33,284 nucleotides of DNA from a virus (Duplodnaviria; Caudoviricetes), in IMG/VR virus record IMGVR_UViG_3300025277_000072, positions 1 through 33,284 of that record; one strand, given 5' to 3'. Made by a program: the position numbers and the translations under genes. Of the stretch, positions 5,286-24,737 are shown piece after piece. The stretch's first letter is position 1, and the number at the start of each line of letters is the position of its first letter. The notes under the pieces were generated by a model that was not told the DNA's origin, did no database searches, and was given only the letters and a program-made list of their open reading frames with translations.

Positions 5286-5537
5286 CTACTCCTCTCCATA
5301 TAAGAATTTACGTAAGGGTATTCTGCGAAAGCGCCAGGAATGTCCTACGCGCACCGCGCCAGGGAGTTCTTCTTTTCGGGCCATTGCGTGACCGGTCACA
5401 GTGCTGATGTTCAGCAGGATACATCCCGTCCTGAAATCCAACAGCATCTTGGTGTCATCGTTCAAATCCGCAATCGCTTGTTTCTTTGAACTTACAGTGA
5501 AGTCCTTGGGTGAGCGCCGCCATGCTTCCGTTGTCAT
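5286..5537 (-). CDS. Excisionase-like (HTH_17/MerR-type) DNA-binding protein
   Basis: LLDFRTGCILLNISTVTGHAMARKEELPGAVRVGHSWRF fits the Xis-like winged HTH; AAAGGAG RBS. Confidence 0.8.
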   Translation of the reverse strand: MTTEAWRRSPKDFTVSSKKQAIADLNDDTKMLLDFRTGCILLNISTVTGHAMARKEELPGAVRVGHSWRFRRIPLRKFLYGEE

Positions 5538-6613: not shown

Positions 6614-6829
6614 TTAGTCATTTCGCACCCACCTTTCGATTGTGTGGCTGTATTTGTTTAGGAACTCCTCGACGGCCACCAGCTTGCAGCCGTCCCTATG
6701 CTCGTCGCCGTCCTCCACGCCGCACTCATTACAGTAAAGTTTGTACTCGGCCGGAGTGTACCGAGTCTCGGGATAGGTCTGCACCCGTCCGTACACGAGT
6801 TCGTTAATGATACGGTTTGTTATGTTCAT
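6614..6829 (-). CDS. Small zinc-finger early protein
   Basis: Start ATG 6829 overlaps the upstream TGA; CNECG...H...C. Confidence 0.7.
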   Translation of the reverse strand: MNITNRIINELVYGRVQTYPETRYTPAEYKLYCNECGVEDGDEHRDGCKLVAVEEFLNKYSHTIERWVRND

Positions 6830-7560
6830 GCCGTCGCCCTCGCTTTCTCCAGCGCTAGCCTCAGTTGTTTTAGCGCACCGTGTCCGTGCAGTCCGATGAC
6901 ATACCCCCGCTCCTTCAGGAGTTCGACATTGGCGCATAGCATGCACTTGTCGCAGGTCACCTCGGGATTGAAGTTGTTGGGACACGGCAGGACTGTGACG
7001 CCCTCACGCTCATGCACCTTGCGGGACAGGTGCTTCAAGTACGTCCACTCTGCCGACGGATACCCCATTTCTTCCCTCGCGATGTTGATGCCTTCGACCG
7101 TCTCGCACGATGCGAGGACTCTTGCGCCCATCCATGCGGAGTACGGGACCTTGGCCCATGAGTGGCAGTAGGTGTAAGCCTGCCGTCCGGTGCGTTCCTC
7201 GAACCGCACCATAGCGGAGCCTACGAGGTTTGCCGCCGGTATGGTCTGGCAGTCTCCGACGACGTGAATACGCGCGTCCCTGTCGCCCGAGAAATCGTCT
7301 ATGATTTCAGCTTCCACCTCTGCGACCGCTAGCGCAAGGCGCATACGTTCGGCGCCGTACACATCGTCCTCCATCTCGCCGTAGAACGGGCAGTCCTGGG
7401 GGCATGTGACCTGGGAAGCGTGGGTCACGTGAAGGTCGCCCAGCTTGCTTGCGCCGGTCTTGTCCACGCCGATGGCGGTCATCTCTTCGTTCATGCGGTT
7501 GGTCGTGAATTGCTGTTTCCCCGTGTTTGTATAACAACCGTTTCCTTTGGTTATTCGCAT
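6826..7560 (-). CDS. Phage GP88-like (radical-SAM-fold, Fe-S) protein
   Basis: Start ATG 7560 behind AAGGAGG; KLG..TH...TCPQDCPF, RIHVVGD, AYTY.H, LASCET, PCP...TCDKCMLC, IGLHGHG. Confidence 0.7.
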   Translation of the reverse strand: MRITKGNGCYTNTGKQQFTTNRMNEEMTAIGVDKTGASKLGDLHVTHASQVTCPQDCPFYGEMEDDVYGAERMRLALAVAEVEAEIIDDFSGDRDARIHVVGDCQTIPAANLVGSAMVRFEERTGRQAYTYCHSWAKVPYSAWMGARVLASCETVEGINIAREEMGYPSAEWTYLKHLSRKVHEREGVTVLPCPNNFNPEVTCDKCMLCANVELLKERGYVIGLHGHGALKQLRLALEKARATA

Positions 7561-7577: not shown

Positions 7578-7595
7578 TGTACTTGTACAAGTACA
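7578..7595. repeat. 18-bp palindrome, copy 1 (perfect): TGTACTTGTACAAGTACA
   Basis: Read directly; 17 nt upstream of ATG 7560. Confidence 0.95.
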
Positions 7596-7613
7596 GACTA
7601 TGACGCTCTATTT

Positions 7614-7856
7614 TTAGAACTCTCGTATCATTTCGTCTAGCGCTTCGATGTCTAGCTCTTTGTCCCACAGGCTGACCCCGTCGCCGGTGTGGGTGCATTT
7701 GAACATTCCGTTCATGAAGTCCATCCGCAGGCTTAGGTATGGTTGTGGGTAGGTCGAGTACCCTTGTGAGGCACGATAGACTGTGTAGTCGTTCCCCAGC
7801 CACAACGCCACGTTCCAAGTGGCGCGGTTCTTCCAGCCGTTATACTCGTCGCTCAT
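7614..7856 (-). CDS. Widespread small phage early protein (YNGWxNxxTWNVALW family)
   Basis: EYNGWKNRATWNVALWLGND; start ATG 7856 behind AAGGAGG. Confidence 0.8.
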   Translation of the reverse strand: MSDEYNGWKNRATWNVALWLGNDYTVYRASQGYSTYPQPYLSLRMDFMNGMFKCTHTGDGVSLWDKELDIEALDEMIREF

Positions 7857-8125
7857 TGCGTCCTCCTTGCTTCTCGCTGTTTCCGGTGCCACTCGAATCT
7901 TCCAGGATTGCACCCGCAATCGCACTGGATATTAAGGTCCGGCTCCATCTTGGCCGTGCATTCGTGGTCGGGCAATTCCTCGCCCATCGTGACCATGAAC
8001 GCAACCTGCTTCACCCATGCCTTACGATGGTCCCAGTCGTCATCGAGGAGTTCATTCCCCCCGATGCCGAGGTCATACGCTGGCAGTGAGCAGTCGTCGC
8101 ATATGTTCATATCCCTAACCGTCAT
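7853..8125 (-). CDS. Small Cys-rich early protein
   Basis: Start ATG 8125 behind GGAGG; CDDC...HEC...CDCGC. Confidence 0.7.
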   Translation of the reverse strand: MTVRDMNICDDCSLPAYDLGIGGNELLDDDWDHRKAWVKQVAFMVTMGEELPDHECTAKMEPDLNIQCDCGCNPGRFEWHRKQREARRTQ

Positions 8126-8127
8126 TG

Positions 8128-8337
8128 TTATCCTCCGTGTCCCATGATTAAGAGTTCCTCGGCGCCGAACACCTTGCGTTCGCCGCATGACTCGCACTCG
8201 TAGTTCCTGGCGTCCGGCTCACACCCGCCCTGCACGTAATGGCAGGCAAGGCATATACCGTCGTTGCCCATGCCGAACATCTGCTCCTCCGCGAGTTGCA
8301 TCACCATGTTTTCAAACTCTTGTTTCGTGTGTTTCAT
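8128..8337 (-). CDS. Zinc-ribbon early protein
   Basis: GICLAC...GCEPDARNYECESCGERKVFGAEELL, a common phage Zn-ribbon pattern. Confidence 0.8.
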   Translation of the reverse strand: MKHTKQEFENMVMQLAEEQMFGMGNDGICLACHYVQGGCEPDARNYECESCGERKVFGAEELLIMGHGG

Positions 8338-8531
8338 CTGTCACCTTCCTTCTCGATTCTTCGCTCAGTCGGCATCAAAGGCCCCAGCGAACCTTTCACA
8401 TCCCATTTCGTCCATGTCGCTTCGCCATGCTTGGGGCATGCCCACTCAGCCAGCTGGCAGTAACAGCAATGCACGCCTTCAACTATCACCCAACCCTGGG
8501 AATTGATTACCTTTCCATCTTCGCTAGCCAT
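8334..8531 (-). CDS. Small Cys-rich early protein
   Basis: 65-aa ORF, GGAGG RBS, CCYC....WACPKH. Confidence 0.65.
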   Translation of the reverse strand: MASEDGKVINSQGWVIVEGVHCCYCQLAEWACPKHGEATWTKWDVKGSLGPLMPTERRIEKEGDR

Positions 8532-8533
8532 CG

Positions 8534-8878
8534 TTATCCTCCTTCTTCTTCATGGGTGTATTCCTCAATGATTGTGTGACAATCACCACAGGCTAGGTAT
8601 TGGGTCGGGTTCTCAGCGAGGAAGCCCTCCTCAAATTCCTGCCACTCGTCAGTCGAGAACATCGGGTGTATCGGGTTGCCTTCGTTATCCAGTGTTGGGA
8701 ATTGTGGGTCATCCCATACACCGTGCTCGTCAACGTAGCGCGTGAAATTCATCTTCTGTACTTCTGCAAGTACAAGACGCGCTACGTTCCGTTTGGAATT
8801 AGACTCGTCACTAAACCGCTTGATAGTGCAGGCAATACAGTGAATGTCTGCCTCGTACGTGTACGCTATGATGTTCAT
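8534..8878 (-). CDS. Zinc-binding early protein
   Basis: AYTYEADIHCIAC...DNEGNPIHPMF..DEW...CGDC; GAGGAGG RBS. Confidence 0.75.
   Translation of the reverse strand: MNIIAYTYEADIHCIACTIKRFSDESNSKRNVARLVLAEVQKMNFTRYVDEHGVWDDPQFPTLDNEGNPIHPMFSTDEWQEFEEGFLAENPTQYLACGDCHTIIEEYTHEEEGG
8757..8774. repeat. 18-bp palindrome, copy 2 (intragenic): TGTACTTCTGCAAGTACA
   Basis: Read directly; lies inside ORF 8534..8878. Confidence 0.9.
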
Positions 8879-9048
8879 TCGTCCTCCTCGATGGTTTCAC
8901 CCATCTCAATTAGTTGCTCTCGACCGTTTCCCTTGTCATTTGCCCATCCGCAGTAGCACCGCGCCAACCCTTCGTGGTCGTCGCAGCCATAGCACACCTT
9001 CGCGCCACAGTAGTCGCTGAAGATATACTCATGCTTACACGTCGCCAT
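8875..9048 (-). CDS. 57-aa Cys-rich protein (not in the ORF track)
   Basis: MATCKHEYIFSDYCGAKVCYGCDDHEGLARCYCGW...EEDE; AGGAGG RBS; TGA overlaps the next ATG. Confidence 0.75.
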   Translation of the reverse strand: MATCKHEYIFSDYCGAKVCYGCDDHEGLARCYCGWANDKGNGREQLIEMGETIEEDE

Positions 9049-9049
9049 C

Positions 9050-9271
9050 TCAATCCTCCTTCCCGATGTCTAGGAGTATGGGCATCATGCGTTTGCACTC
9101 AAAACACGGCTCAGACTTGGGCACGTTGACCCCGTGCATCCGTCCGGCTCTCATTTCCTCTTGGCCTGTGTGGTTGGCCTGCACCATCGCTAGCGCATCG
9201 GGCAAGTCAATGCCCAACACGTGTTCGATAATGTGTTCCACATCCTCCAGAGTGAACAATTTCTCAGGCAT
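9050..9271 (-). CDS. Small hypothetical early protein
   Basis: Start ATG 9271 behind AAGGAGG; C-terminal H...PCFEC. Confidence 0.7.
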   Translation of the reverse strand: MPEKLFTLEDVEHIIEHVLGIDLPDALAMVQANHTGQEEMRAGRMHGVNVPKSEPCFECKRMMPILLDIGKED

Positions 9272-9533
9272 CGTTATCCTCCTTCTCAGGCTTGTTAATG
9301 GATAGCTTCCCATCTTCGTTAGCGTACGCTTCCAAGGCAACCAACTTTTCTACCATCATGGGAATTACCCCAAGGGCATAAGCTGTATGTCCTTGTTTAA
9401 GCTCGTCTATCGCTAAGTCACCAAGGAGTTGCCAGCTAGGCGGTTCCCATTTAATTTCCAACGGCTTCCTCTCTTCCAGCCACGCTTCGGTTAAGCGTGC
9501 ATTCAGGTCTTGGGCTTTGCATTTGAGCTTCAT
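9264..9533 (-). CDS. Small hypothetical early protein
   Basis: 89-aa ORF, AAGGAGG RBS directly after palindrome copy 3. Confidence 0.75.
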   Translation of the reverse strand: MKLKCKAQDLNARLTEAWLEERKPLEIKWEPPSWQLLGDLAIDELKQGHTAYALGVIPMMVEKLVALEAYANEDGKLSINKPEKEDNDA

Positions 9534-9548
9534 CAGTGCCTCCTTCCC

Positions 9549-9566
9549 TGTACTTCTACAAGTACA
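9549..9566. repeat. 18-bp palindrome, copy 3: TGTACTTCTACAAGTACA
   Basis: Read directly; 15 nt upstream of ATG 9533. Confidence 0.95.
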
Positions 9567-9595
9567 AGCTGTAATTCCCGTAGTTCAACGCAGTC

Positions 9596-9826
9596 TCATG
9601 CGCCCTCCTTTCTTTCCCACGGCCCTTGTATGACGTGCGAGAAATCGTAGAAGTAGTAAGACGGCCACGTGACGCCGTCGGTGGACTCGACGAGGTGTTT
9701 CTCGCACACATAGAGCAGGTTCACGCTCTTGTGACCGTCATGGAAGTCACGGGTGTACTGCCCTATGGTGCGAGACGCACGCTCAGGACACATGTAGTCA
9801 GGTATTTCACACAACATCGTCATCAC
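9596..9826 (-). CDS. Small zinc-finger early protein
   Basis: 76-aa ORF, C......C...VCEKH. Confidence 0.65.
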   Translation of the reverse strand: MMTMLCEIPDYMCPERASRTIGQYTRDFHDGHKSVNLLYVCEKHLVESTDGVTWPSYYFYDFSHVIQGPWERKEGA

Positions 9827-10266
9827 TACTGCTGTTCTATTTCTGACAGCAGTTCGTAGTAGAACGAGCCGTCGGCGAAGTGGAACACGCTTCCATCCTC
9901 GGCGACGTTATCGTTCAACCAGTCTTCTGCCTCCGTTATTGCCTCATCGTAGAACTCGTTGTCCGCAGGCAGTTCCTCGCCGGTCCAACCGTAGGATGTT
10001 GCCAAGTCTTGGACGGCCTCGCCTGTGAATCGACCGCGCACGTCCCCGTCGAACACAAGGCCGTGCGGTGGCGGCGTCCCATGAATCTGCGAAGCACAAC
10101 TGACATGGCTAATCAATTTCGAGACACACACTCGGTGTATATGGGTGGGAACGCGAACGTACTGTCGCGCACATTGGGCACGTTGCCCTGTTTCAATTTT
10201 CGCCTCACATAGGCAGCAATCCGTCGCGCCTGACCTCACGGTCTCGCGTTTGAAAACCCAGTGCAT
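9826..10266 (-). CDS. Two-part early protein: N-terminal zinc finger plus acidic C-terminal domain
   Basis: CCLC...HRVC, then DNEFYDEAITEAEDWLNDNVAED; AGGAGG RBS. Confidence 0.7.
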   Translation of the reverse strand: MHWVFKRETVRSGATDCCLCEAKIETGQRAQCARQYVRVPTHIHRVCVSKLISHVSCASQIHGTPPPHGLVFDGDVRGRFTGEAVQDLATSYGWTGEELPADNEFYDEAITEAEDWLNDNVAEDGSVFHFADGSFYYELLSEIEQQ

Positions 10267-10275
10267 TGTTTCCTC

Positions 10276-10434
10276 CTAGCTCGTTTCCTGATGGTATTCA
10301 CATTTGCCATTGGCTACGGCAGACTGGTCACAGAACCACATAATCCCAGTTGACCGTAGACGGCCTAACCGTAGAAGCCGGATTCCCTCATCCGTTAAGG
10401 GTCGCTTTACAATGACATCACACATTCTGGGCAT
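10276..10434 (-). CDS. 52-aa Cys/His protein (not in the ORF track)
   Basis: MPRMCDVIVKRP...WFCDQSAVANGKCEYHQETS; GAAGGGGG RBS; stop abuts the next RBS. Confidence 0.6.
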   Translation of the reverse strand: MPRMCDVIVKRPLTDEGIRLLRLGRLRSTGIMWFCDQSAVANGKCEYHQETS

Positions 10435-10461
10435 AACATCCCCCTTCGCAATAGCTGAGCC

Positions 10462-10479
10462 TGTACTTCTACAAGTACA
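10462..10479. repeat. 18-bp palindrome, copy 4: TGTACTTCTACAAGTACA
   Basis: Read directly; intergenic, 27 nt upstream of ATG 10434. Confidence 0.95.
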
Positions 10480-10482
10480 ACG

Positions 10483-10701
10483 TCAGCGTAAGGTGTTATC
10501 TGAAACTTTCAGAAGGTTAGCTCGTTTCCTGTAATTATCGACCATCGTTTTCCTTCTTTGCGATTCTTGCTCAGTATGTTCCCAATGACATCCGGTATTA
10601 AGATTCCGTTTGTCACAAGTCTCACGCACGTTCTTGCCACCACGATACGCGAAGAACGTCTTACCGCAACCGTGACATCTGACTTTAACCCGTTGTTCCA
10701 T
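10483..10701 (-). CDS. Small basic zinc-finger early protein
   Basis: Start ATG 10701 behind GAGAGG; CHGCGKTF...TC.......C. Confidence 0.7.
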   Translation of the reverse strand: MEQRVKVRCHGCGKTFFAYRGGKNVRETCDKRNLNTGCHWEHTEQESQRRKTMVDNYRKRANLLKVSDNTLR

Positions 10702-10725
10702 TGTTTCCTCTCGCAATAACTAACT

Positions 10726-10743
10726 TGTACTTCTACAAGTACA
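10726..10743. repeat. 18-bp palindrome, copy 5: TGTACTTCTACAAGTACA (extends to CTTGTACTT-CTAC-AAGTACAAG)
   Basis: Read directly; 24 nt upstream of ATG 10701. Confidence 0.95.
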
Positions 10744-10812
10744 AGGCGGTAACAATAAATTCACATAGGCGCTCACTTTCTGGAATGCAACAATGCAAAC
10801 CATACGCAATTG

Positions 10813-10843
10813 AAAACACCCGATACGTTATGCATCGGGTGTT
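10813..10843 (-). terminator. Intrinsic terminator after the first early gene
   Basis: Minus strand AACACCCGAT-gcataacgt-ATCGGGTGTT-TT: 10-bp perfect stem ending in a short U-tract. Confidence 0.7.
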
Positions 10844-10912
10844 GGGAGTAGTTGGCGCGTTGTTGTGACACACACAGATTGATTGATTGCTGATAACGTC
10901 GATATTAGGTAT

Positions 10913-11749
10913 TTATTCTTCGTCTTTGATACTCAGGAAGCGGTCATGAAAGTCACATCGTAGCAATCGAATATAATCATTCACGCTCTCATGCTTGACG
11001 CGTATCCCATAGGGCGCCGCGTCGGTCAGTGGGCAGTCAGGCTCGCATACCAGAATGACCGTCGACTTCTTTGTGTCCACTTCCGATTTGGGAGTGTAGG
11101 CGGGAACATACATTCCCGCTAGCGTCTTTAGGTGTTCCTGAATCGCTTCGCCCTTTGCCCATTTCTCAAGACCTTTTGTGCCCCGATAATGACCTATGCG
11201 ACTTTCAGGTTCCACGCCTATTGCCTGTAGGTCACGCTTGAAGTCGGGAGTTAGTTTCCCGCCTGTATCAGCGCTTGAGCGAGCCTTTAAGGTGTTACCC
11301 CTGTAAACCAACTCTAACCCAGTCGCGACAATGTGAGCGCAAACGGTTGTCCAGTTTTCACCTTTGACCGCTTTTGCGTAATCCTCATGCCCTACCCAAA
11401 GATAAAGCACATGTGCGTGTTCAATGTCAGGTTTGCCTATACTGACAATGTTCGCTTGACGCCTGTTAGGCTGACTATTCACTACCAGTCGCACGCTGAT
11501 TGGTGACTTGAAGTCTTTTGCGCGCAATTCAGGCATCCGGTCGATTCCGGCTTTCATGATGCTGACAAAAGCCTCATGATACTTCGACTCCACGCCGTTA
11601 GCGCTCAAGTCGATTAAGTCGGAAAGTTTACCTTGCTTGATTACAGGCGCCGGTACAGGCGCCGGTGCTCCGTCGACGTCTTTGTTAACGTCGATTGCCT
11701 TGGTAGACTGACCGGTTTTCTTTGTCTTGTCAGGTGTCTTCGTTGTCAT
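10913..11749 (-). CDS. First early gene; SprT-like architecture with C-terminal zinc ribbon but no HExxH
   Basis: Start ATG 11749 behind GGAGAG; FKRDLQAIGV, KKSTVILVCEPDC...IRV...LRCDFH. Confidence 0.55.
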   Translation of the reverse strand: MTTKTPDKTKKTGQSTKAIDVNKDVDGAPAPVPAPVIKQGKLSDLIDLSANGVESKYHEAFVSIMKAGIDRMPELRAKDFKSPISVRLVVNSQPNRRQANIVSIGKPDIEHAHVLYLWVGHEDYAKAVKGENWTTVCAHIVATGLELVYRGNTLKARSSADTGGKLTPDFKRDLQAIGVEPESRIGHYRGTKGLEKWAKGEAIQEHLKTLAGMYVPAYTPKSEVDTKKSTVILVCEPDCPLTDAAPYGIRVKHESVNDYIRLLRCDFHDRFLSIKDEE

Positions 11750-11768
11750 GGTGTCCACTCTCCATAGT

Positions 11769-11786
11769 TGTACTTCTACAAGTACA
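11769..11786. repeat. 18-bp palindrome, copy 6: TGTACTTCTACAAGTACA
   Basis: Read directly; 19 nt upstream of ATG 11749. Confidence 0.95.
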
Positions 11787-11844
11787 GCGTGTGTGCCACA
11801 ACAACGCGTCGACTCAATATTCAGTTGGTAAAGTGCGTGACCGG

Positions 11845-11874
11845 AGTATCGCACGACTGATATAGATGTGTCAA
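11845..11874 (-). promoter_or_regulatory. Early sigma70-type promoter
   Basis: Minus strand TTGACA (11874-11869), 18 nt, extended -10 TGc-GATACT (11850-11845). Confidence 0.7.
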
Positions 11875-12028
11875 GCGTAACAATCAATACGCCAAACGGG
11901 ATAAATGTGGGTAAGTCTGACAGTGGGATTGTATCTGGAAAGATACCAGATACCAACCACAGTAAATTTCCAAATTGTGACGCCTGACATTCTATACTTC
12001 TATACTTACAATTCCCGACTGTCCAGCA

Positions 12029-12179
12029 GCGTCACGGCTTGAGAGCCTCATGACTTGAGAGCCTCATGACTTGAGAGCCTGACATCTTGAGAGCCTGACA
12101 TCTTGAGAGCCTCACGACTTGAGGCGTCACGACTTGAGGCGTCACGGCTTGAGAGCCTGGCGGCTTGAGAGCGTCACGA
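12029..12179. repeat. Tandem array of nine 15-16-bp units, core CTTGAG(A)GC
   Basis: CTTGAG starts at 12038, 12054, 12070, 12086, 12102, 12118, 12133, 12148 and 12164. Confidence 0.95.
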
Positions 12180-12252
12180 GTGGGGCATTACGCTATGAGG
12201 ATGAAGTTTGAAAGACAAGGAATCAAGCTAAAAGGAGAGAGCATTACGCGAC

Positions 12253-12585
12253 GGGTGGGGGGTGGGGGGTGAAGGATAGATGACGATGAGAGCTAGGAGG
12301 TGATGGGTGGTGGTAGATGGTGATGGGAGATAGCAGTGGCGTCAAGGGGTTGGGGTGTATGTGATGGGTGGAGTGGTGATGGGTGGTCAGGGGTTAGAGG
12401 GTGATAGCTGTAAGGGTTAGTAGATGGTAGGGGCTCAGGGATGTTGGGTGTTGTCGGTGGGTGTGGGTGTTAGGGTATGAAGATGGGGGTGTATGTATGG
12501 ATGTGATAGGGTCTGAGGCGTATGAGGTTGGCTGTAGAGGGGCGTTAGGGTGTAGTAAGGTGTTAGGGGTCAGGAGGGGGGTATG
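12253..12585 (+). other. Non-coding G/T-rich, C-depleted tract
   Basis: About 15 C in 333 nt by hand count; many GGG runs; no ORF. Confidence 0.9.
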
Positions 12586-12680
12586 TCTTAGGTCTTGTGG
12601 TTGTTTGGTGAGGATACCCCTCTACGTTTTATTTTATTAAAAGGCTTGTCTGTATGACGTTTAGGCTCACTGTCTCTAGC

Positions 12681-19812: not shown

Positions 19813-20151
19813 ATGGGCACACAGAACAGCTACTACGGGACCGATAATCCGTTCATGGATTACCTAGAACAGCTGCCTGCGCAGGCCGCGTACTATTCCG
19901 GCCCCACCGCGACCTCGTTCATGGAGGGGCCTCTCGGCGCTCAAAGGTACTACCAGAACCAGTTCCAGAACGTCTACAACGAGTACCTCGGCGCTCTCGG
20001 CACGCAGGCAAGAACGGGACAAGGCCCCGTGCGCTGGACGGACTGGCTAGAGCAGCAGCCGTTCACCGAGCGGTACGCGGCGCTCACGCCCGAGATGGCG
20101 GGACGCACCACTCGTAGGTTCAGCCCCGGCACAAGGCAGATTTACTTCTAA
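19813..20151 (+). CDS. Small putative virion protein
   Basis: 112 aa, Tyr/Gln-rich; AGGAG RBS; TAATG coupling to the next gene. Confidence 0.6.
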   Translation: MGTQNSYYGTDNPFMDYLEQLPAQAAYYSGPTATSFMEGPLGAQRYYQNQFQNVYNEYLGALGTQARTGQGPVRWTDWLEQQPFTERYAALTPEMAGRTTRRFSPGTRQIYF

Positions 20152-23100
20152 TGGGAACGGAAGCAGGTCGCCTAGCGCTGGAACGTCTGGACAAGAGCCT
20201 TGACAGGGCGCATGCGCGTCGTGAGGAGTTTAAGACCTTCCGCAAAACGCCGACTTGGGGCGCGATAAAGTACGGCGTGCCGCGCGCTTTCTCTGCGACC
20301 GCTGAGAGCCTTCCTAGCTTTATGGGCGGCGTGATGAGCCGCACTCCAGGGCTGTTGCCCCGCAAGATAGACCTCCCTGGTTGGGTGGCGGGGACGCCTG
20401 TGGGCGTTGGCCTTGGCCCGGGGTATGTGCCGGAGGTAACCATCGGCAAGGACCGCCATGTGCCGCTTATCCCAAAGGCTGGCGAGGCGATGGGATTGCT
20501 GTCGAGAGCGCCCGGGATGGGCGCCTTCGGGGAACCAAAGCCAGAAGCGATGGAAGCGTTCAAGACTTTCGTGACTCCCGGCAGGGAGGGCCTTGGCCTT
20601 GGGGAGACCCTTCGAGATGTTCAACGCGTTCAAGAGGCAAGGCCGATGCTAGAGCAGATTGGCCTTGGCCTGATTGACCCGGTAGGCACGCTCGCCACGG
20701 GCGGTCTCGGCGCGACCAAGGCTATCCCCGCAGCTATGCGTGGCGTCCCTAAACTCGCAGGCCGTATTCCTGGGCTATTTGGACGACTGCGTCCTCCAAT
20801 TCCTCCAACGCCAATCCCTCTTGGAGCTATCCCTACAAGGACTAGCCGTCTCTGGGATGAGGCCACCGCAAGAGCCGCACCTACCCCCACAGAGGCAGTC
20901 ACGCCGGTGACACGTCCGCCCACACCCGCAACCTACCAAGACCCTCAATTCCAGGAAATGGCTGACGCATTTCGACAAAGACAGGCTATGGAGGCCTTTG
21001 CACGTCCCACCGTCGCACCAGGGGCAGAGGTCGCAAGAGCCGCACCCACCCCCACTAGAACCACTCCCCTCTGGCGCGGAGAGGAGCTTCCTCCAATTCC
21101 TCCGGTAAGGACTCGTCTTGGGGGAACGCTTCCAAGGACTAGCCGTCTCTGGGACGAGGGAGCCGGTGTCCCAACGCCGGAGCCACTCGAAACAACTCCC
21201 CAGGCGATGGGTTCCATATGGCGTGCTGGTCCTTTCTGGCGAGGACAACAACCCCCGCGTTGGACTCAGGAAGTTCAGGACATACCATACGCGCAGCAAG
21301 CCGGACCTCTCTGGCGTGAGGGCGCTCGTGCTCCTACGATTCCCACTAGAACCACCCCTCTTTGGCGAGGAGAAGAGCTTCCCCCAATCCCTCCGATGAT
21401 GGCTCGTCTTGGAGGAACACTTCCAAGGACTAGCCGTCTTTGGGACGAAGCCGCTCGTGGTCCGGCAATGGAGCCTCTCGGAACAACACCTACGCAGATT
21501 GGTCGTTTCTGGGAGGAGGGCGTTCCTCCGACTCCTACGATGGAGCCACTTGGAACCACCCCTAGTAGAACTACCCCTCTCTGGCGCGAAGGGGGAGCGA
21601 CCCCGCGCATGACCCCAGAAGAGATGATGGCCGCTGGCTATGAGTACGATATATTTACCGGCGCCCCTCTAGACAGGGCCATTGGCAGGGAGGGCGGACG
21701 TTTGGCGACCAATCGTCTCTGGCGCGGCGAGGAGATTCCTGGAGGGCCGACTGGAGACGTTGAAGGTCTTCCTTATGCGCTAGGCGCCAACCGGCTATGG
21801 GCAGAGGGCTCTCGCAGGGCTAATCAGCTGGACGAGATGGACGCGGTCATTCGCACCCAACGTCAGGAGCCGGATGTTGCCGGTGCGCCTGAAGTCATCG
21901 AAGCGGGTCGTCGTGGGCCTGGAGCTCAGCCGGAGATGGTGCAGCCCATCAGGGAACAGGTTGCCGAGGCCGTCAGGGGATGGCCAGCTGGCATAAGCGG
22001 CGCTGCCGCGCGTCTGGCAGGGCGAGGCCCCGCCGTTGGGGTCGAAGCGTCGGAGCGCACCGCCGAGGTCACGGGTTCGTGGGTCGCGCGTTACGGTAAT
22101 GAAGAGGACATAGACGTAGTCCATAAGCTAACTGACGTGCTCAAAACCGCGGGTAGGGTTCGAGAGGAAGAGATAAAGACGGCGGTGGCCTCGGAGCGCT
22201 CGGAAAGGTTAGCTGCCGGACTATCGGCTGCAAAGGGCCTACGCGGTTCCGAGGCTATGAAGGCTTTTGCCAGTGTGCAGGCTGGGGATGTAATTTCGGC
22301 GCGTAGGACGCTGAATGTGGACGATATATTGGAGGGCGTTGGCGGTCAGCGGGGCGTCAACCGGCTAATGGATATGATGGACGAAGTGGGCGCCATTGGG
22401 GGTGACACTCCCAAGGAACGCCTGCTCCCTTGGCAGCAGTTCAACGCACAAAATGCGCTAAACGACCTACTCAACCAGGGGGCGGTGCCCACGTCAAGCA
22501 ACCTGAACCTGCTGGCTGATGTTTTCGGAGAGGGCGTGGGAGGGGCGCTGGTGCGTCGTAGGCCGGTGAGTTTATGGGAGGGCGGCCCTCTCGGGCGCAT
22601 GCTGACCGAACGCACGGGATACAAGCCCAGCGAACTTCTCCTGGATATTTTGAATATGCCAAGGGCGAATGTATCCTCGGTTGACCTATCTTTTTTGCTA
22701 AGACAGGGTGGCATGCTCTTCCCTTCCCAGCTAAAAGAGGTTCGCGCTTCCACGGACCTTGCGTTGCGCGCTATGGCGCCAGGGGGCGAGCAGGTTGCGC
22801 TCGGTGTTATGACGGACATGCGCAACGTCGAGAACGGCCAACTTTGGATGAGGTACGTCGATGGTGGCGGACTGTTTATGCACGATGTGGCCGGTGGCGT
22901 GGGAGGAAGGGCAATTGGCAGCAGGGAGGAAGCGTTCATATCGACCCTCGCCGGGAAGGTCTTCCCGTGGGTGAGGCCCTCTGAGCGCGCGTACGGCACG
23001 TTCCTGAACAAGATGCGCTGGGACGTGATGGACGAGATGATTAAGAAGTATGAGACCGCCCGTGGTGGACGCATAATCGACCCTAAGAATAGTTCAGACC

Positions 23101-24737
23101 TTCAGATGTTGAAGGATACCGCGCGTTACATCAACACGGTCACAGGAAGAGGTCCGCTGGGCACCAATGCTGGTTGGATGAGAGGCGCTGCCACTCTGAT
23201 GAATGCGCTCATGTTCTCCCCGAGGCTGTTCACCTCTAGGTTTGCTGCCCCTGTTCAGGCTATGAAGATGGTGGTGGCTCCTGGGGATAGGGCCAATATA
23301 CAACCCGGGATTAGGGCTTTATTCAAAAGGGCGGTTGAGGGCGATGAAGAGGCCCTAGCCGCGTACAAGACGATGAGTTGGACTGTGGCCAGACAGATGA
23401 TTACATGGTTTGGGACGGGCGTAGGCATACTGACTGCGGCAAAGATGGCCCAGGAGGGGGGCCTGCCGGTCAGTGTTGGCGCCAACTGGCGCTCGTCTGA
23501 CTTCGGCAAGGTGCAGGTCGGGTCGGTTAGGTACGACATCTGGTCTGGGTATTCTCAGATAGCCCGTGCGATAGGTCAGTTGAAAGAAAAGGAATCTAAG
23601 TCTGCGTCAACTGGAACTGTGTATGAGCAGTCAGTTGGGGAAACCCTAAAGCGTTTTGTTCGAACCAAGTTCAACCCGGCGGTAAGTATCTTCCAAGAGT
23701 ACAACCTCATCCCCGGCACACGAGTGGGCGAGGGTGGGTTTATGCACGGCCAAGGCTTCCTCGGAGAGGATAGGGACCTGCTGGAGGACATGAAGACCTC
23801 TCCCATTCGTTTAGAGCGCGGTGTGCCGCTGCTGGATGAGGAGAGCTTCTGGACCAATGTTATGGGACCGCTGTTCCTGCGAGACCTATCCGATGCGATA
23901 GACGATGAGATTTCGCCCCTGGTGCCGCGTGAGGCGGTCACGCAGGTGAACATCGGCAAAGAGCCGCCTTCGCTGGTATGGGGTGTGGTGCGCGGTGTGC
24001 TGCGGGGCGCTCCCAGCGCTGTCGGCATTGGCGTCACCGCCTTCCGCACAAGGGATGACATGGCTCGTGAGGTGAGCAAGGATGAGCCGCGAGGCCCTCG
24101 TGAGTACAACTTGCTTCCAGAGCATCAAAAGCAGATGGTGGACGACCTCATCAAATTGAAGGATTTAGAGAGAGGGCGCAAGCGCACCCGGGGCATGATG
24201 GCCGAGCTTGAGGGCAATAGACAGCAGGAACAGAATGCCTACCGTAGGCTTGCCCAAAAGGTCTCGACTACGAGGGTGAGCGTGTCTGACGTGCGAGAGG
24301 ACTTCTATAACATCCAGCAGGAGGTGGACGCTAGGCGTCAGGATATATTCGAGAAGCACATTGGCGGTGTCACGGAGAGGGGGAAAGAGTTGCGTCGTGA
24401 GGGGATGGGACCGCTGGAGAGGCGCATTCAGGCTTTCTACGATATGTTGGACCAAGCCCAGATAAAGAAGGGCACTGAACTGTTGCCTGCTAAGCTCTTG
24501 CCCAAGGAATACATTCAGGTACTGGATGCGTGGGAGAGCGAGATGGTCGCCTCGGACGAGCCGGACGACCGCGCGGCGGTGCTGTGGAAGCGCATGAACA
24601 TGTACCGAGAGGACATACCCGAGGAGATTCTAAAGTACCTTTCGGTTGGCGTGCGTCAGCGCTACGAGGCGGCACGCAAGATGCGTGAGTGGTATGATGC
24701 AGGCGAGTTGCGGGAAGAACTATACCAACAGCGTTAA
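20151..24737 (+). CDS. Large internal virion / DNA-ejection protein
   Basis: 1528 aa; repetitive Pro/Thr/Trp N-terminus; C-terminal LRQG, SERAY, INTVTGRG, FSPRL, SSDFGKV..G..RYDIWSG motifs like those of large podoviral core proteins. Confidence 0.7.
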   Translation: MGTEAGRLALERLDKSLDRAHARREEFKTFRKTPTWGAIKYGVPRAFSATAESLPSFMGGVMSRTPGLLPRKIDLPGWVAGTPVGVGLGPGYVPEVTIGKDRHVPLIPKAGEAMGLLSRAPGMGAFGEPKPEAMEAFKTFVTPGREGLGLGETLRDVQRVQEARPMLEQIGLGLIDPVGTLATGGLGATKAIPAAMRGVPKLAGRIPGLFGRLRPPIPPTPIPLGAIPTRTSRLWDEATARAAPTPTEAVTPVTRPPTPATYQDPQFQEMADAFRQRQAMEAFARPTVAPGAEVARAAPTPTRTTPLWRGEELPPIPPVRTRLGGTLPRTSRLWDEGAGVPTPEPLETTPQAMGSIWRAGPFWRGQQPPRWTQEVQDIPYAQQAGPLWREGARAPTIPTRTTPLWRGEELPPIPPMMARLGGTLPRTSRLWDEAARGPAMEPLGTTPTQIGRFWEEGVPPTPTMEPLGTTPSRTTPLWREGGATPRMTPEEMMAAGYEYDIFTGAPLDRAIGREGGRLATNRLWRGEEIPGGPTGDVEGLPYALGANRLWAEGSRRANQLDEMDAVIRTQRQEPDVAGAPEVIEAGRRGPGAQPEMVQPIREQVAEAVRGWPAGISGAAARLAGRGPAVGVEASERTAEVTGSWVARYGNEEDIDVVHKLTDVLKTAGRVREEEIKTAVASERSERLAAGLSAAKGLRGSEAMKAFASVQAGDVISARRTLNVDDILEGVGGQRGVNRLMDMMDEVGAIGGDTPKERLLPWQQFNAQNALNDLLNQGAVPTSSNLNLLADVFGEGVGGALVRRRPVSLWEGGPLGRMLTERTGYKPSELLLDILNMPRANVSSVDLSFLLRQGGMLFPSQLKEVRASTDLALRAMAPGGEQVALGVMTDMRNVENGQLWMRYVDGGGLFMHDVAGGVGGRAIGSREEAFISTLAGKVFPWVRPSERAYGTFLNKMRWDVMDEMIKKYETARGGRIIDPKNSSDLQMLKDTARYINTVTGRGPLGTNAGWMRGAATLMNALMFSPRLFTSRFAAPVQAMKMVVAPGDRANIQPGIRALFKRAVEGDEEALAAYKTMSWTVARQMITWFGTGVGILTAAKMAQEGGLPVSVGANWRSSDFGKVQVGSVRYDIWSGYSQIARAIGQLKEKESKSASTGTVYEQSVGETLKRFVRTKFNPAVSIFQEYNLIPGTRVGEGGFMHGQGFLGEDRDLLEDMKTSPIRLERGVPLLDEESFWTNVMGPLFLRDLSDAIDDEISPLVPREAVTQVNIGKEPPSLVWGVVRGVLRGAPSAVGIGVTAFRTRDDMAREVSKDEPRGPREYNLLPEHQKQMVDDLIKLKDLERGRKRTRGMMAELEGNRQQEQNAYRRLAQKVSTTRVSVSDVREDFYNIQQEVDARRQDIFEKHIGGVTERGKELRREGMGPLERRIQAFYDMLDQAQIKKGTELLPAKLLPKEYIQVLDAWESEMVASDEPDDRAAVLWKRMNMYREDIPEEILKYLSVGVRQRYEAARKMREWYDAGELREELYQQR

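What the first reader, a model, noticed from the sequence alone, without database searches (positions are those of the whole stretch)
7578..11786. Six copies of an 18-bp palindrome (TGTACTT-N4-AAGTACA) punctuate the early-gene array, five just upstream of ribosome-binding sites
Seen: copies at 7578, 8757, 9549, 10462, 10726 and 11769. Four are identical (TGTACTTCTACAAGTACA), one is a perfect palindrome and one has a single loop change. The 7-bp arms never vary; only the 4-nt centre does. All fall in a 4.2 kb span of the early arm and I saw none elsewhere. Five are intergenic, 15-27 nt before a start codon; the one at 11769 lies about 50 nt downstream of the predicted early promoter, so it is transcribed. 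Inference, three alternatives: (a) operator array for a dimeric phage or host protein (repression, roadblock or titration of a host regulator); (b) RNA tetraloop hairpins UGUACUU-GUAG-AAGUACA acting as processing, stability, antitermination or translational signals; (c) recombination sites delimiting exchangeable cassettes of small anti-host genes. It does not match the LexA (GAAC-N4-GTTC), parS or NtcA (GTA-N8-TAC) consensus as I know them, and no classical repressor is encoded in the window.
Basis: partly seen in the sequence, partly recalled or inferred. Interest (0 to 1): 0.85.

Follow-up and report, generated by a model that had tools for sequence, protein, structure and literature searches.

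The report
Switching palindrome array, dead-protease reader
A marine phage repeats one 18-letter DNA palindrome six times among its first genes, close relatives swap all copies to a different palindrome together, and the sites are likely docking points for the phage's own first protein, a predicted protease-shaped protein that lacks its cutting residues and would damp early gene expression.

Summary
The six copies are real; five precede a ribosome-binding site and one lies inside a gene. The window is a marine tailed phage, probably of Dehalococcoidia. Relatives carry their own, different 18-bp palindromes in the same arm. Between near-identical relatives all three shared copies switch together (14-15 of 54 site bases against 8-15 of about 120 flank bases), tracking the allele of the first early gene. 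That gene (10913-11749) is predicted to fold like SprT/SPRTN but lacks HExxH and ends in a cysteine-rich putative zinc ribbon. Arrays occur in 8 of 8 arms with a SprT-like gene and 1 of 11 without, though only 3 independent pairs exist. Symmetry reaches the centre and some copies are flipped, favouring double-stranded DNA over RNA hairpins. No host regulon was found. Best reading: a phage-specific operator array read by a dead SprT-like protein; binding is untested. This scan noted SprT-plus-motif pairings before on other DNA; the dead-enzyme branch and allele-linked switching are what this case adds.

The parts
11769..11786 (.). Site 1, between the early promoter and the RBS of the first gene (19 nt before ATG)
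10726..10743 (.). Site 2, downstream of the first gene, 24 nt before ATG of ORF 10483-10701
10462..10479 (.). Site 3, 3 nt after a stop codon, 27 nt before ATG of ORF 10276-10434
9549..9566 (.). Site 4, 15 nt before ATG of ORF 9264-9533
8757..8774 (.). Site 5, inside ORF 8534-8878, in a segment that varies between homologues
7578..7595 (.). Site 6, perfect palindrome, 17 nt before ATG of the DUF7227 gene (6826-7560)
10913..11749 (-). First early gene, 278 aa: predicted SprT/zincin-like domain without HExxH plus C-terminal Cys/His putative zinc ribbon; candidate reader of the sites
11845..11874 (-). Sigma-70-type promoter-like site (TTGACA-18-GATACT) heading the early arm; consensus match only
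8534..8878 (-). Small early ORF that holds site 5 in frame
6826..7560 (-). DUF7227 gene directly after the last site

Best explanation
The six palindromes are likely double-stranded DNA operators for the phage's own first early protein (10913-11749), a predicted SprT-fold protein that lacks the HExxH motif and would bind each dyad as a dimer to damp its own and later early transcription. Shown: the sites, their places, their lineage-specific sequence, the switch of all shared copies between close relatives, the bracketing of the first gene by sites, the absence of HExxH. Predicted: the SprT fold. Inferred: the protein is made first from the host-type promoter at 11874; it binds site 1 (about +52 to +69, too far downstream to block initiation) and sites 2-6 as roadblocks to elongation; it would also bind the same sites on an incoming kin genome, so a phage gains by changing protein and sites together, which would explain the many site versions.
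For: (1) Lineage-specific 18-bp dyads in the same arm: L143, L144, L237, L156, L171, L191, L262, L294, L169; none downstream of terL in the 26 phage loci scanned. (2) Concerted switch: L237/L143/L144 differ at 14-15 of 54 site bases but 8 of 121, 14 of 121 and 15 of 120 flank bases (Fisher p 0.0009, 0.014, 0.018); small genes between sites are 96-97% identical while the first gene is 70% identical. (3) Site type follows first-gene allele in L237, L143 and the L144-like loci L239-L242; old-type and half-old/half-new sites persist far from the gene in L143 and L242. (4) Array with 3 or more copies in 8 of 8 arms with a SprT-like gene and 1 of 11 without; the label needs 5 changes on the TerL tree. 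(5) Two unrelated phage contigs found by a palindrome alone carry an intact SprT-like gene (phrog_6361, E 1.3e-42 for L323) inside their array. (6) Four of five dead-protein lineages (window, L143 clade, L156, L294) share GT(A/C)C outer arms; the two phrog_6361-type lineages do not. (7) Over 61 sites, pairs 8 and 9, which would be loop in a hairpin, are complementary in 87% and 57%; both orientations occur in L156 and L294. (8) Model pLDDT 85.7; 3 of the 5 viral matches at E<=0.001 are named SprT-like; best solved match is the SPRTN domain 6MDX, Z 6.5, rmsd 3.3 over 103 residues. SPRTN binds DNA through a zinc-binding domain behind the protease domain (PMC7534798, passages).
Against: No binding is shown, and sequence-specific binding by a SprT-family protein is in none of the papers I saw; SPRTN is structure-specific. 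Only 3 independent pairs support the gene-array link (sign test p 0.25), and I first spotted the L156 and L262 genes by eye next to arrays (profile E 3.4e-3 and 1.2e-5 afterwards). L169 (2 sites around an unassigned 315-aa gene) was left out. L153 has a family fragment but no clear site in the DNA held upstream. L277 has a 15-bp array and L079/L008 have look-alike arrays with no SprT gene in the DNA held. The Z of 6.5 is middling. In the window 5 of 5 asymmetric sites, and in L191 9 of 9, face the same way, which an RNA or directional role also predicts. The putative zinc ribbon hardly differs between L237 and L143 although the site differs at 5 bases; changes cluster in residues 126-150 (8 of 24 replacements, p 0.04, post hoc). 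High flank identity may partly reflect recent gene exchange, so the switch may be older than it looks. The transcriptional outcome is pure inference.
Confidence: 0.55

Rival explanations
1. Same reader and same duplex sites, but the purpose is not transcription control: the protein marks the phage's own first-entering DNA, to shield it or displace host proteins, a remnant of the DNA-dependent protease role of intact SprT relatives.
For: All gene-array evidence above applies. Only site 1 is near a strong promoter-like site, none overlaps one, and one lies inside a gene. Intact-HExxH relatives also sit in arrays.
Against: Five of six sites lie 15-27 nt before a start codon and the gene is usually bracketed by sites, which fits gene control and autoregulation.
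Confidence: 0.17
2. The palindromes act as folded structures (mRNA hairpins, duplexes between two copies, or extruded DNA hairpins) read by the SprT-like protein or a host RNase.
For: A 7-bp hairpin of -6.2 kcal/mol is predicted, a copy-copy duplex of -19.2; orientation is constant in the window and L191; SPRTN is activated by hairpins (PMC7534798 passages); YbeY RNases are among the fold matches. A copy-copy duplex would also explain central symmetry.
Against: In context the hairpin is predicted to be under 20% formed at 2 of 6 window sites; loops are not conserved between lineages; several lineages have no loop; flipped copies exist; structure alone does not explain linkage to a protein allele.
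Confidence: 0.1
3. The sites are boxes for a host regulator that reads only the outer arms (TGT[AC]C-N8-G[GT]ACA), used or titrated by the phage.
For: Those arms recur in four lineages; the loose pattern is slightly commoner than its reversed control in 41 host-order genomes (477 against 396, summed by hand).
Against: The exact motif occurs once each in 2 of 401 Dehalococcoidia genomes; the motif upstream of host lexA genes is G(A/T)AC-N4-GT(A/T)C (7 of 9 loci); four other lineages have unrelated arms; a host reader gives no reason for centres to stay symmetric and switch in concert. The host assignment itself rests on TerL only.
Confidence: 0.07
4. Another phage protein, such as the excisionase-like HTH at 5286-5537, reads the sites.
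For: It is the only annotated DNA-binding domain in the arm; L262 has a close homologue; the L143-clade and L156 contigs end before that region.
Against: No homologue in the 10-kb arms of L171, L191 or L294, which have arrays, and a weak one in array-less L174.
Confidence: 0.06
5. The sites are crossover points of a site-specific cassette-exchange system.
For: 7 of 45 listed breakpoints lie within 12 nt of a site edge (5.5% expected, p 0.01); L237 has an extra site with a different gene and L242 a deletion between sites.
Against: 13 of the same 45 lie at start/RBS zones generally (10% expected, p 0.0003); no recombinase was annotated in the window; one site is inside a gene. Passive homologous exchange suffices.
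Confidence: 0.05

Closest known systems
Repressor-stoperator systems of Cluster A mycobacteriophages (PMC6550527, passages)
   Same: Many phage-specific sites, mostly away from promoters; site motif diverges with the cognate phage protein; proposed roadblock and immunity role.
   Different: Stoperators are asymmetric 13-mers (20-30 per genome) read by an HTH repressor in temperate phages. Here: six 18-bp dyads in 4.2 kb, a SprT-fold candidate, no integrase or repressor annotated in the window.
17-bp dyad repeats of Cluster O mycobacteriophages (PMC4351075, passages and Discussion)
   Same: Invariant 7-bp arms with a biased centre, between and within genes, function unknown, predicted dimeric reader, not obviously temperate.
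   Different: Over 30 copies genome-wide, 3-bp spacer, not tied to starts, same motif across the cluster, no reader named.
PeSL cassettes of T4-type phages (PMC2839356, abstract only)
   Same: Repeated elements between small early genes in a hyperplastic region where genes are swapped.
   Different: PeSLs carry a promoter and terminator each; here no promoter per site and no lineage-shared module.
SPRTN/SprT zincins (PDB 6MDX; PMC7534798 passages; phrog_6361)
   Same: Predicted fold; a zinc-binding element behind the protease domain; DNA binding in SPRTN.
   Different: HExxH absent in the window protein and in 19 of 19 representatives checked; SPRTN is structure-specific and an active protease.
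SprT-like gene plus repeated-motif arrays noted earlier in this scan (unchecked AI notes)
   Same: Same pairing of a SprT zinc-ribbon gene with iterated sites in phages.
   Different: Those notes describe 8-10 bp words or a 32-bp element with proteases; here 18-bp dyads, a dead branch and allele-linked switching.

Membership tests
Cluster A stoperator system | Asymmetric site oriented with transcription | tested here: not met
   Sites are dyads; flipped copies in L156, L294
Cluster A stoperator system | HTH immunity repressor cognate to the sites | tested here: not met
   Only HTH is excisionase-like and does not track arrays
Cluster A stoperator system | Site motif diverges with the cognate protein | tested here: met
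   Site type follows first-gene allele; cognate status inferred
Cluster A stoperator system | Bound protein blocks elongation | not testable with these tools
   Needs experiment
SprT-like (PF10263 / phrog_6361) | Zincin fold | tested here: met
   Predicted model matches SprT-named viral models at E 8e-5 to 9e-4 and 6MDX at Z 6.5
SprT-like (PF10263 / phrog_6361) | HExxH catalytic motif | tested here: not met
   Absent in window protein and 19 of 19 representatives
SprT-like (PF10263 / phrog_6361) | Profile match | tested here: not met
   No Pfam or PHROG hit for the window protein; L171, L191, L323 do hit
LexA SOS box of the likely host | G(A/T)AC-N4-GT(A/T)C | tested here: not met
   Seen upstream of 7 of 9 lexA-family loci; window site has GTAC-N8-GTAC
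PeSL cassette | Promoter plus terminator at each element | tested here: not met
   Promoter-like sites near 2 of 6, terminator-like at 1 of 6
Site-specific recombination sites | Breakpoints concentrated at sites; recombinase gene | tested here: inconclusive
   Breakpoints follow gene starts generally; no recombinase annotated, but the contig may be incomplete
parS-type centromere array | Cognate ParB | tested here: not met
   None annotated in the window; ParB-like ORFs (judged by eye) occur in array-less L175 and L188

The most novel reading that the evidence does not exclude
A family of catalytically dead SprT proteins has become a sequence-specific DNA-binding fold whose 18-bp target is re-written in step with the protein, giving phages of Dehalococcoidia a repressor-free self/non-self system: the first protein made silences or blocks incoming kin DNA that carries the same palindrome, and escape drives whole arrays to switch.
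Probability: 0.3. Interest if true: 0.85.

Novelty: new variant of a known kind. Interest (0 to 1): 0.62.

Why it matters
Repeated palindromes of unknown function are common in phage early regions and their readers are mostly unnamed. This family supplies a named candidate and a natural specificity series: three alleles 70-91% identical with three different sites, plus hybrids. That makes a swap experiment simple. If binding holds, the SprT/zincin fold gains a sequence-specific DNA-binding role by loss of catalysis, and phage-phage competition gains a fast-evolving recognition system in viruses of an abundant, little-studied marine host group.

Tried and rejected
Exact-motif scan of viral contigs: 124 loci from part of the collection, almost all single chance matches; a tighter pattern found the full array only in a contig of the same phage. 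Helicase-anchored search gave 1 locus; five near-complete relatives gave no array in the parts fetched, which mostly miss the start of the arm. First genome-contig scan with a single TerL found nothing; cultured phages gave only 25-28% TerL matches in the rows shown. Pfam, PHROGs, the protein atlas and Foldseek-PDB gave nothing for the first protein. Profile-profile tests did not link L191, L171 or L169 proteins to the window family. The C-terminal domain has no listed fold match, but it was barely tested. No RNA holder listed. Complex prediction of a homodimer was not available. How the first site reads in the closest relatives was not resolved. Paper searches for SprT with phage and early gene (4 papers), palindrome and DNA-binding (8), zinc ribbon and operator (0), GTTTAAAC (1) and SPRTN-bacterial (6) showed no title or abstract on this pairing (listings only); SAR202 phage search showed none on this family. 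Subscription papers and supplements were not searched. NtcA, TyrR, CRP, parS and trp operator consensus were compared from recall only and do not fit.
Full report
Observation. The six copies are at the stated coordinates and far above chance; they are the only repeated palindrome family of this size in the window. Five precede an SD and start codon by 15-27 nt; the copy at 8757 is inside ORF 8534-8878. All lie on a leftward arm of small genes headed by a promoter-like site at 11874-11845.

Context. The window is a 33-kb virus record with terminase, major head protein, exonuclease, helicase-like and RusA genes. Near-identical DNA is held by marine runs. A TerL-alignment scan of bacterial genomes gave 15 loci, 14 titled Dehalococcoidia and 1 Chloroflexota, at 53-55% identity; only the terL region matches the window there, so the host is likely, not shown.

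Relatives. TerL searches fetched two sets of 80 loci (best 80 of 150 and of 516). Most end 1-3 kb upstream of terL. I scanned the window and 25 loci with longer arms and kept 20 with at least 3,985 nt for a tree, dropping L173 (near copy of L174) and five short arms (L129, L149, L153, L275, L276). The exact motif is absent from relatives, but other 18-bp dyads take its place: TGTCCGCTTAAGAGGACA (L143), TGTCCTGTCGAYAGGACA (L144), TGTACTGTTAACAGTACA (L237), GTACGCT-N2-AGCGTAC (L156), TGTCCCGATTTCGGGACA (L294), CTCCACTTCAAAG(A/T)GGAG (L262), ACTAGATGTGCATCTAGT (L191), an ACGTGTACACGT core (L171) and two copies of a TATTATT dyad (L169). None was found downstream of terL. Loose ends in marine contigs suggest that phages sharing window genes put yet another palindrome at the place of site 6 (partial letters, inferred).

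Concerted switching. L237, L143 and L144 share three site positions. Sites differ at 14-15 of 54 bases and 20-nt flanks at 8-15 of about 120. Changes keep the symmetry, including the innermost pair. Genes between the sites are 96-97% identical in L143 and L144 while the first gene is 70% identical; L237 and L143 first genes are 90.6% identical. L143 keeps a half-old, half-new site upstream and a near-L237-type site far downstream; L242 has three L144-type sites near its first gene and one L237-type site far away. This fits selection by a protein encoded at the head of the arm, with mosaics made by recombination. Recent gene exchange could inflate flank identity.

The candidate reader. The first gene has no profile hit. 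A deep search gave 24 representatives; none of the 19 longer ones checked has HExxH, and Cys-x3-Cys and a later Cys are nearly invariant. A model from 25 sequences (pLDDT 85.7) matches viral SprT-like models and, best among solved chains, the SPRTN domain (Z 6.5, rmsd 3.3, 103 residues). Family members lie at the head of the arm in L143/L144/L237, L294 (E 1e-11), L262 and L156 (E 1.2e-5, 3.4e-3); L171 and L191 carry phrog_6361 SprT-like genes, which I could not link to the window family by sequence. Arrays of 3 or more copies occur in 8 of 8 arms with such a gene and 1 of 11 without (L277, a 15-bp element); Fisher p 1.2e-4 uncorrected, but only 3 independent pairs, p 0.25; L169 was left out as unassigned. 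Two unrelated contigs retrieved by a palindrome alone hold an intact SprT gene in their array. Against: L079 and L008 arrays show no such gene in the DNA held, and L153 shows no clear site before its gene fragment.

DNA or RNA. Over 61 sites from 11 loci, pair 8 is complementary in 87% and pair 9 in 57% (sites are not independent). These would be loop positions. L156 and L294 have flipped copies; the window and L191 do not. Predicted hairpins form well at 3 window sites, partly at 1 and poorly at 2. Duplex DNA is favoured; a copy-copy duplex is not excluded.

Host factor and recombination. The exact motif occurs once each in 2 of 401 Dehalococcoidia genomes, the loose arms pattern is only slightly above its control, and the motif before host lexA genes is different. 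Listed breakpoints in four runs fall near sites (7 of 45) but as much at gene starts in general (13 of 45); the tool listed only part of its breakpoints. The HTH gene does not track arrays.

Mechanism. Inferred: the first protein binds its dyads as a dimer, limits its own synthesis at site 1 and damps the early transcript at sites 2-6, as stoperators are reported to do (PMC6550527, passages); binding to incoming kin DNA would reward escape and explain the switching. I give this 0.55, the same reader with a non-transcriptional role 0.17, and other readings 0.28 together.

Novelty. It works like a stoperator array but fails membership (symmetric sites, no HTH repressor). Cluster O repeats are the nearest anatomy (PMC4351075). 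I saw no paper on SprT proteins reading such sites. Earlier notes of this scan report SprT-plus-motif pairings in other phages; I had reached the first-gene idea before seeing them (note), and they are not independent evidence. New here are the dead-enzyme branch, the 18-bp dyads and the allele-linked switch.

Noticed in passing
window 12012-12185 and 12230-12600: A 16-bp tandem array and a G/T-rich strand-biased tract between the early promoter and terS; relatives have their own short tandem arrays there and many contigs end there: likely genome end or packaging region.
   Followed up: no
L245-L259, around the TerL match: Dehalococcoidia chromosomes hold a TerL homologue with no other window-like gene within 10 kb: possibly a domesticated terminase.
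   Followed up: partly
L277 (4.1-4.9 kb upstream of terL): Three copies of a 15-bp GC-rich palindrome with a GAA centre in a relative without a SprT-like gene.
   Followed up: no
L323:4660-9100 and L339:6140-10400: Unrelated phages with 6-7 repeated modules of about 60 bp around a GCACGTTTAAACGTGC palindrome and an intact SprT-like gene.
   Followed up: partly
L079:3001-3803, L008:2816-3130: Unrelated AT-rich phages with 3-4 copies of nearly the same arms and an AT-rich centre.
   Followed up: partly
L143:3333-3590, L153:648-908, L156:5052-5384: A small basic ORF sits between the promoter and the SprT-like gene in some relatives; the window lacks it.
   Followed up: no
L171:8010-8333: A 107-aa SprT-like ORF with intact HExxH but no C-terminal Cys domain, beside an array of paired sites.
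   Followed up: no
window 10850-10875 and 11789-11814: A 26-nt inverted repeat (88% complementary) brackets the first gene just outside site 1.
   Followed up: no
window 20151-24737: A 1528-aa unannotated protein with internal Pro/Arg/Trp-rich repeats, among Pro/Gly-rich genes after the portal-position gene; possibly ejected virion proteins.
   Followed up: no
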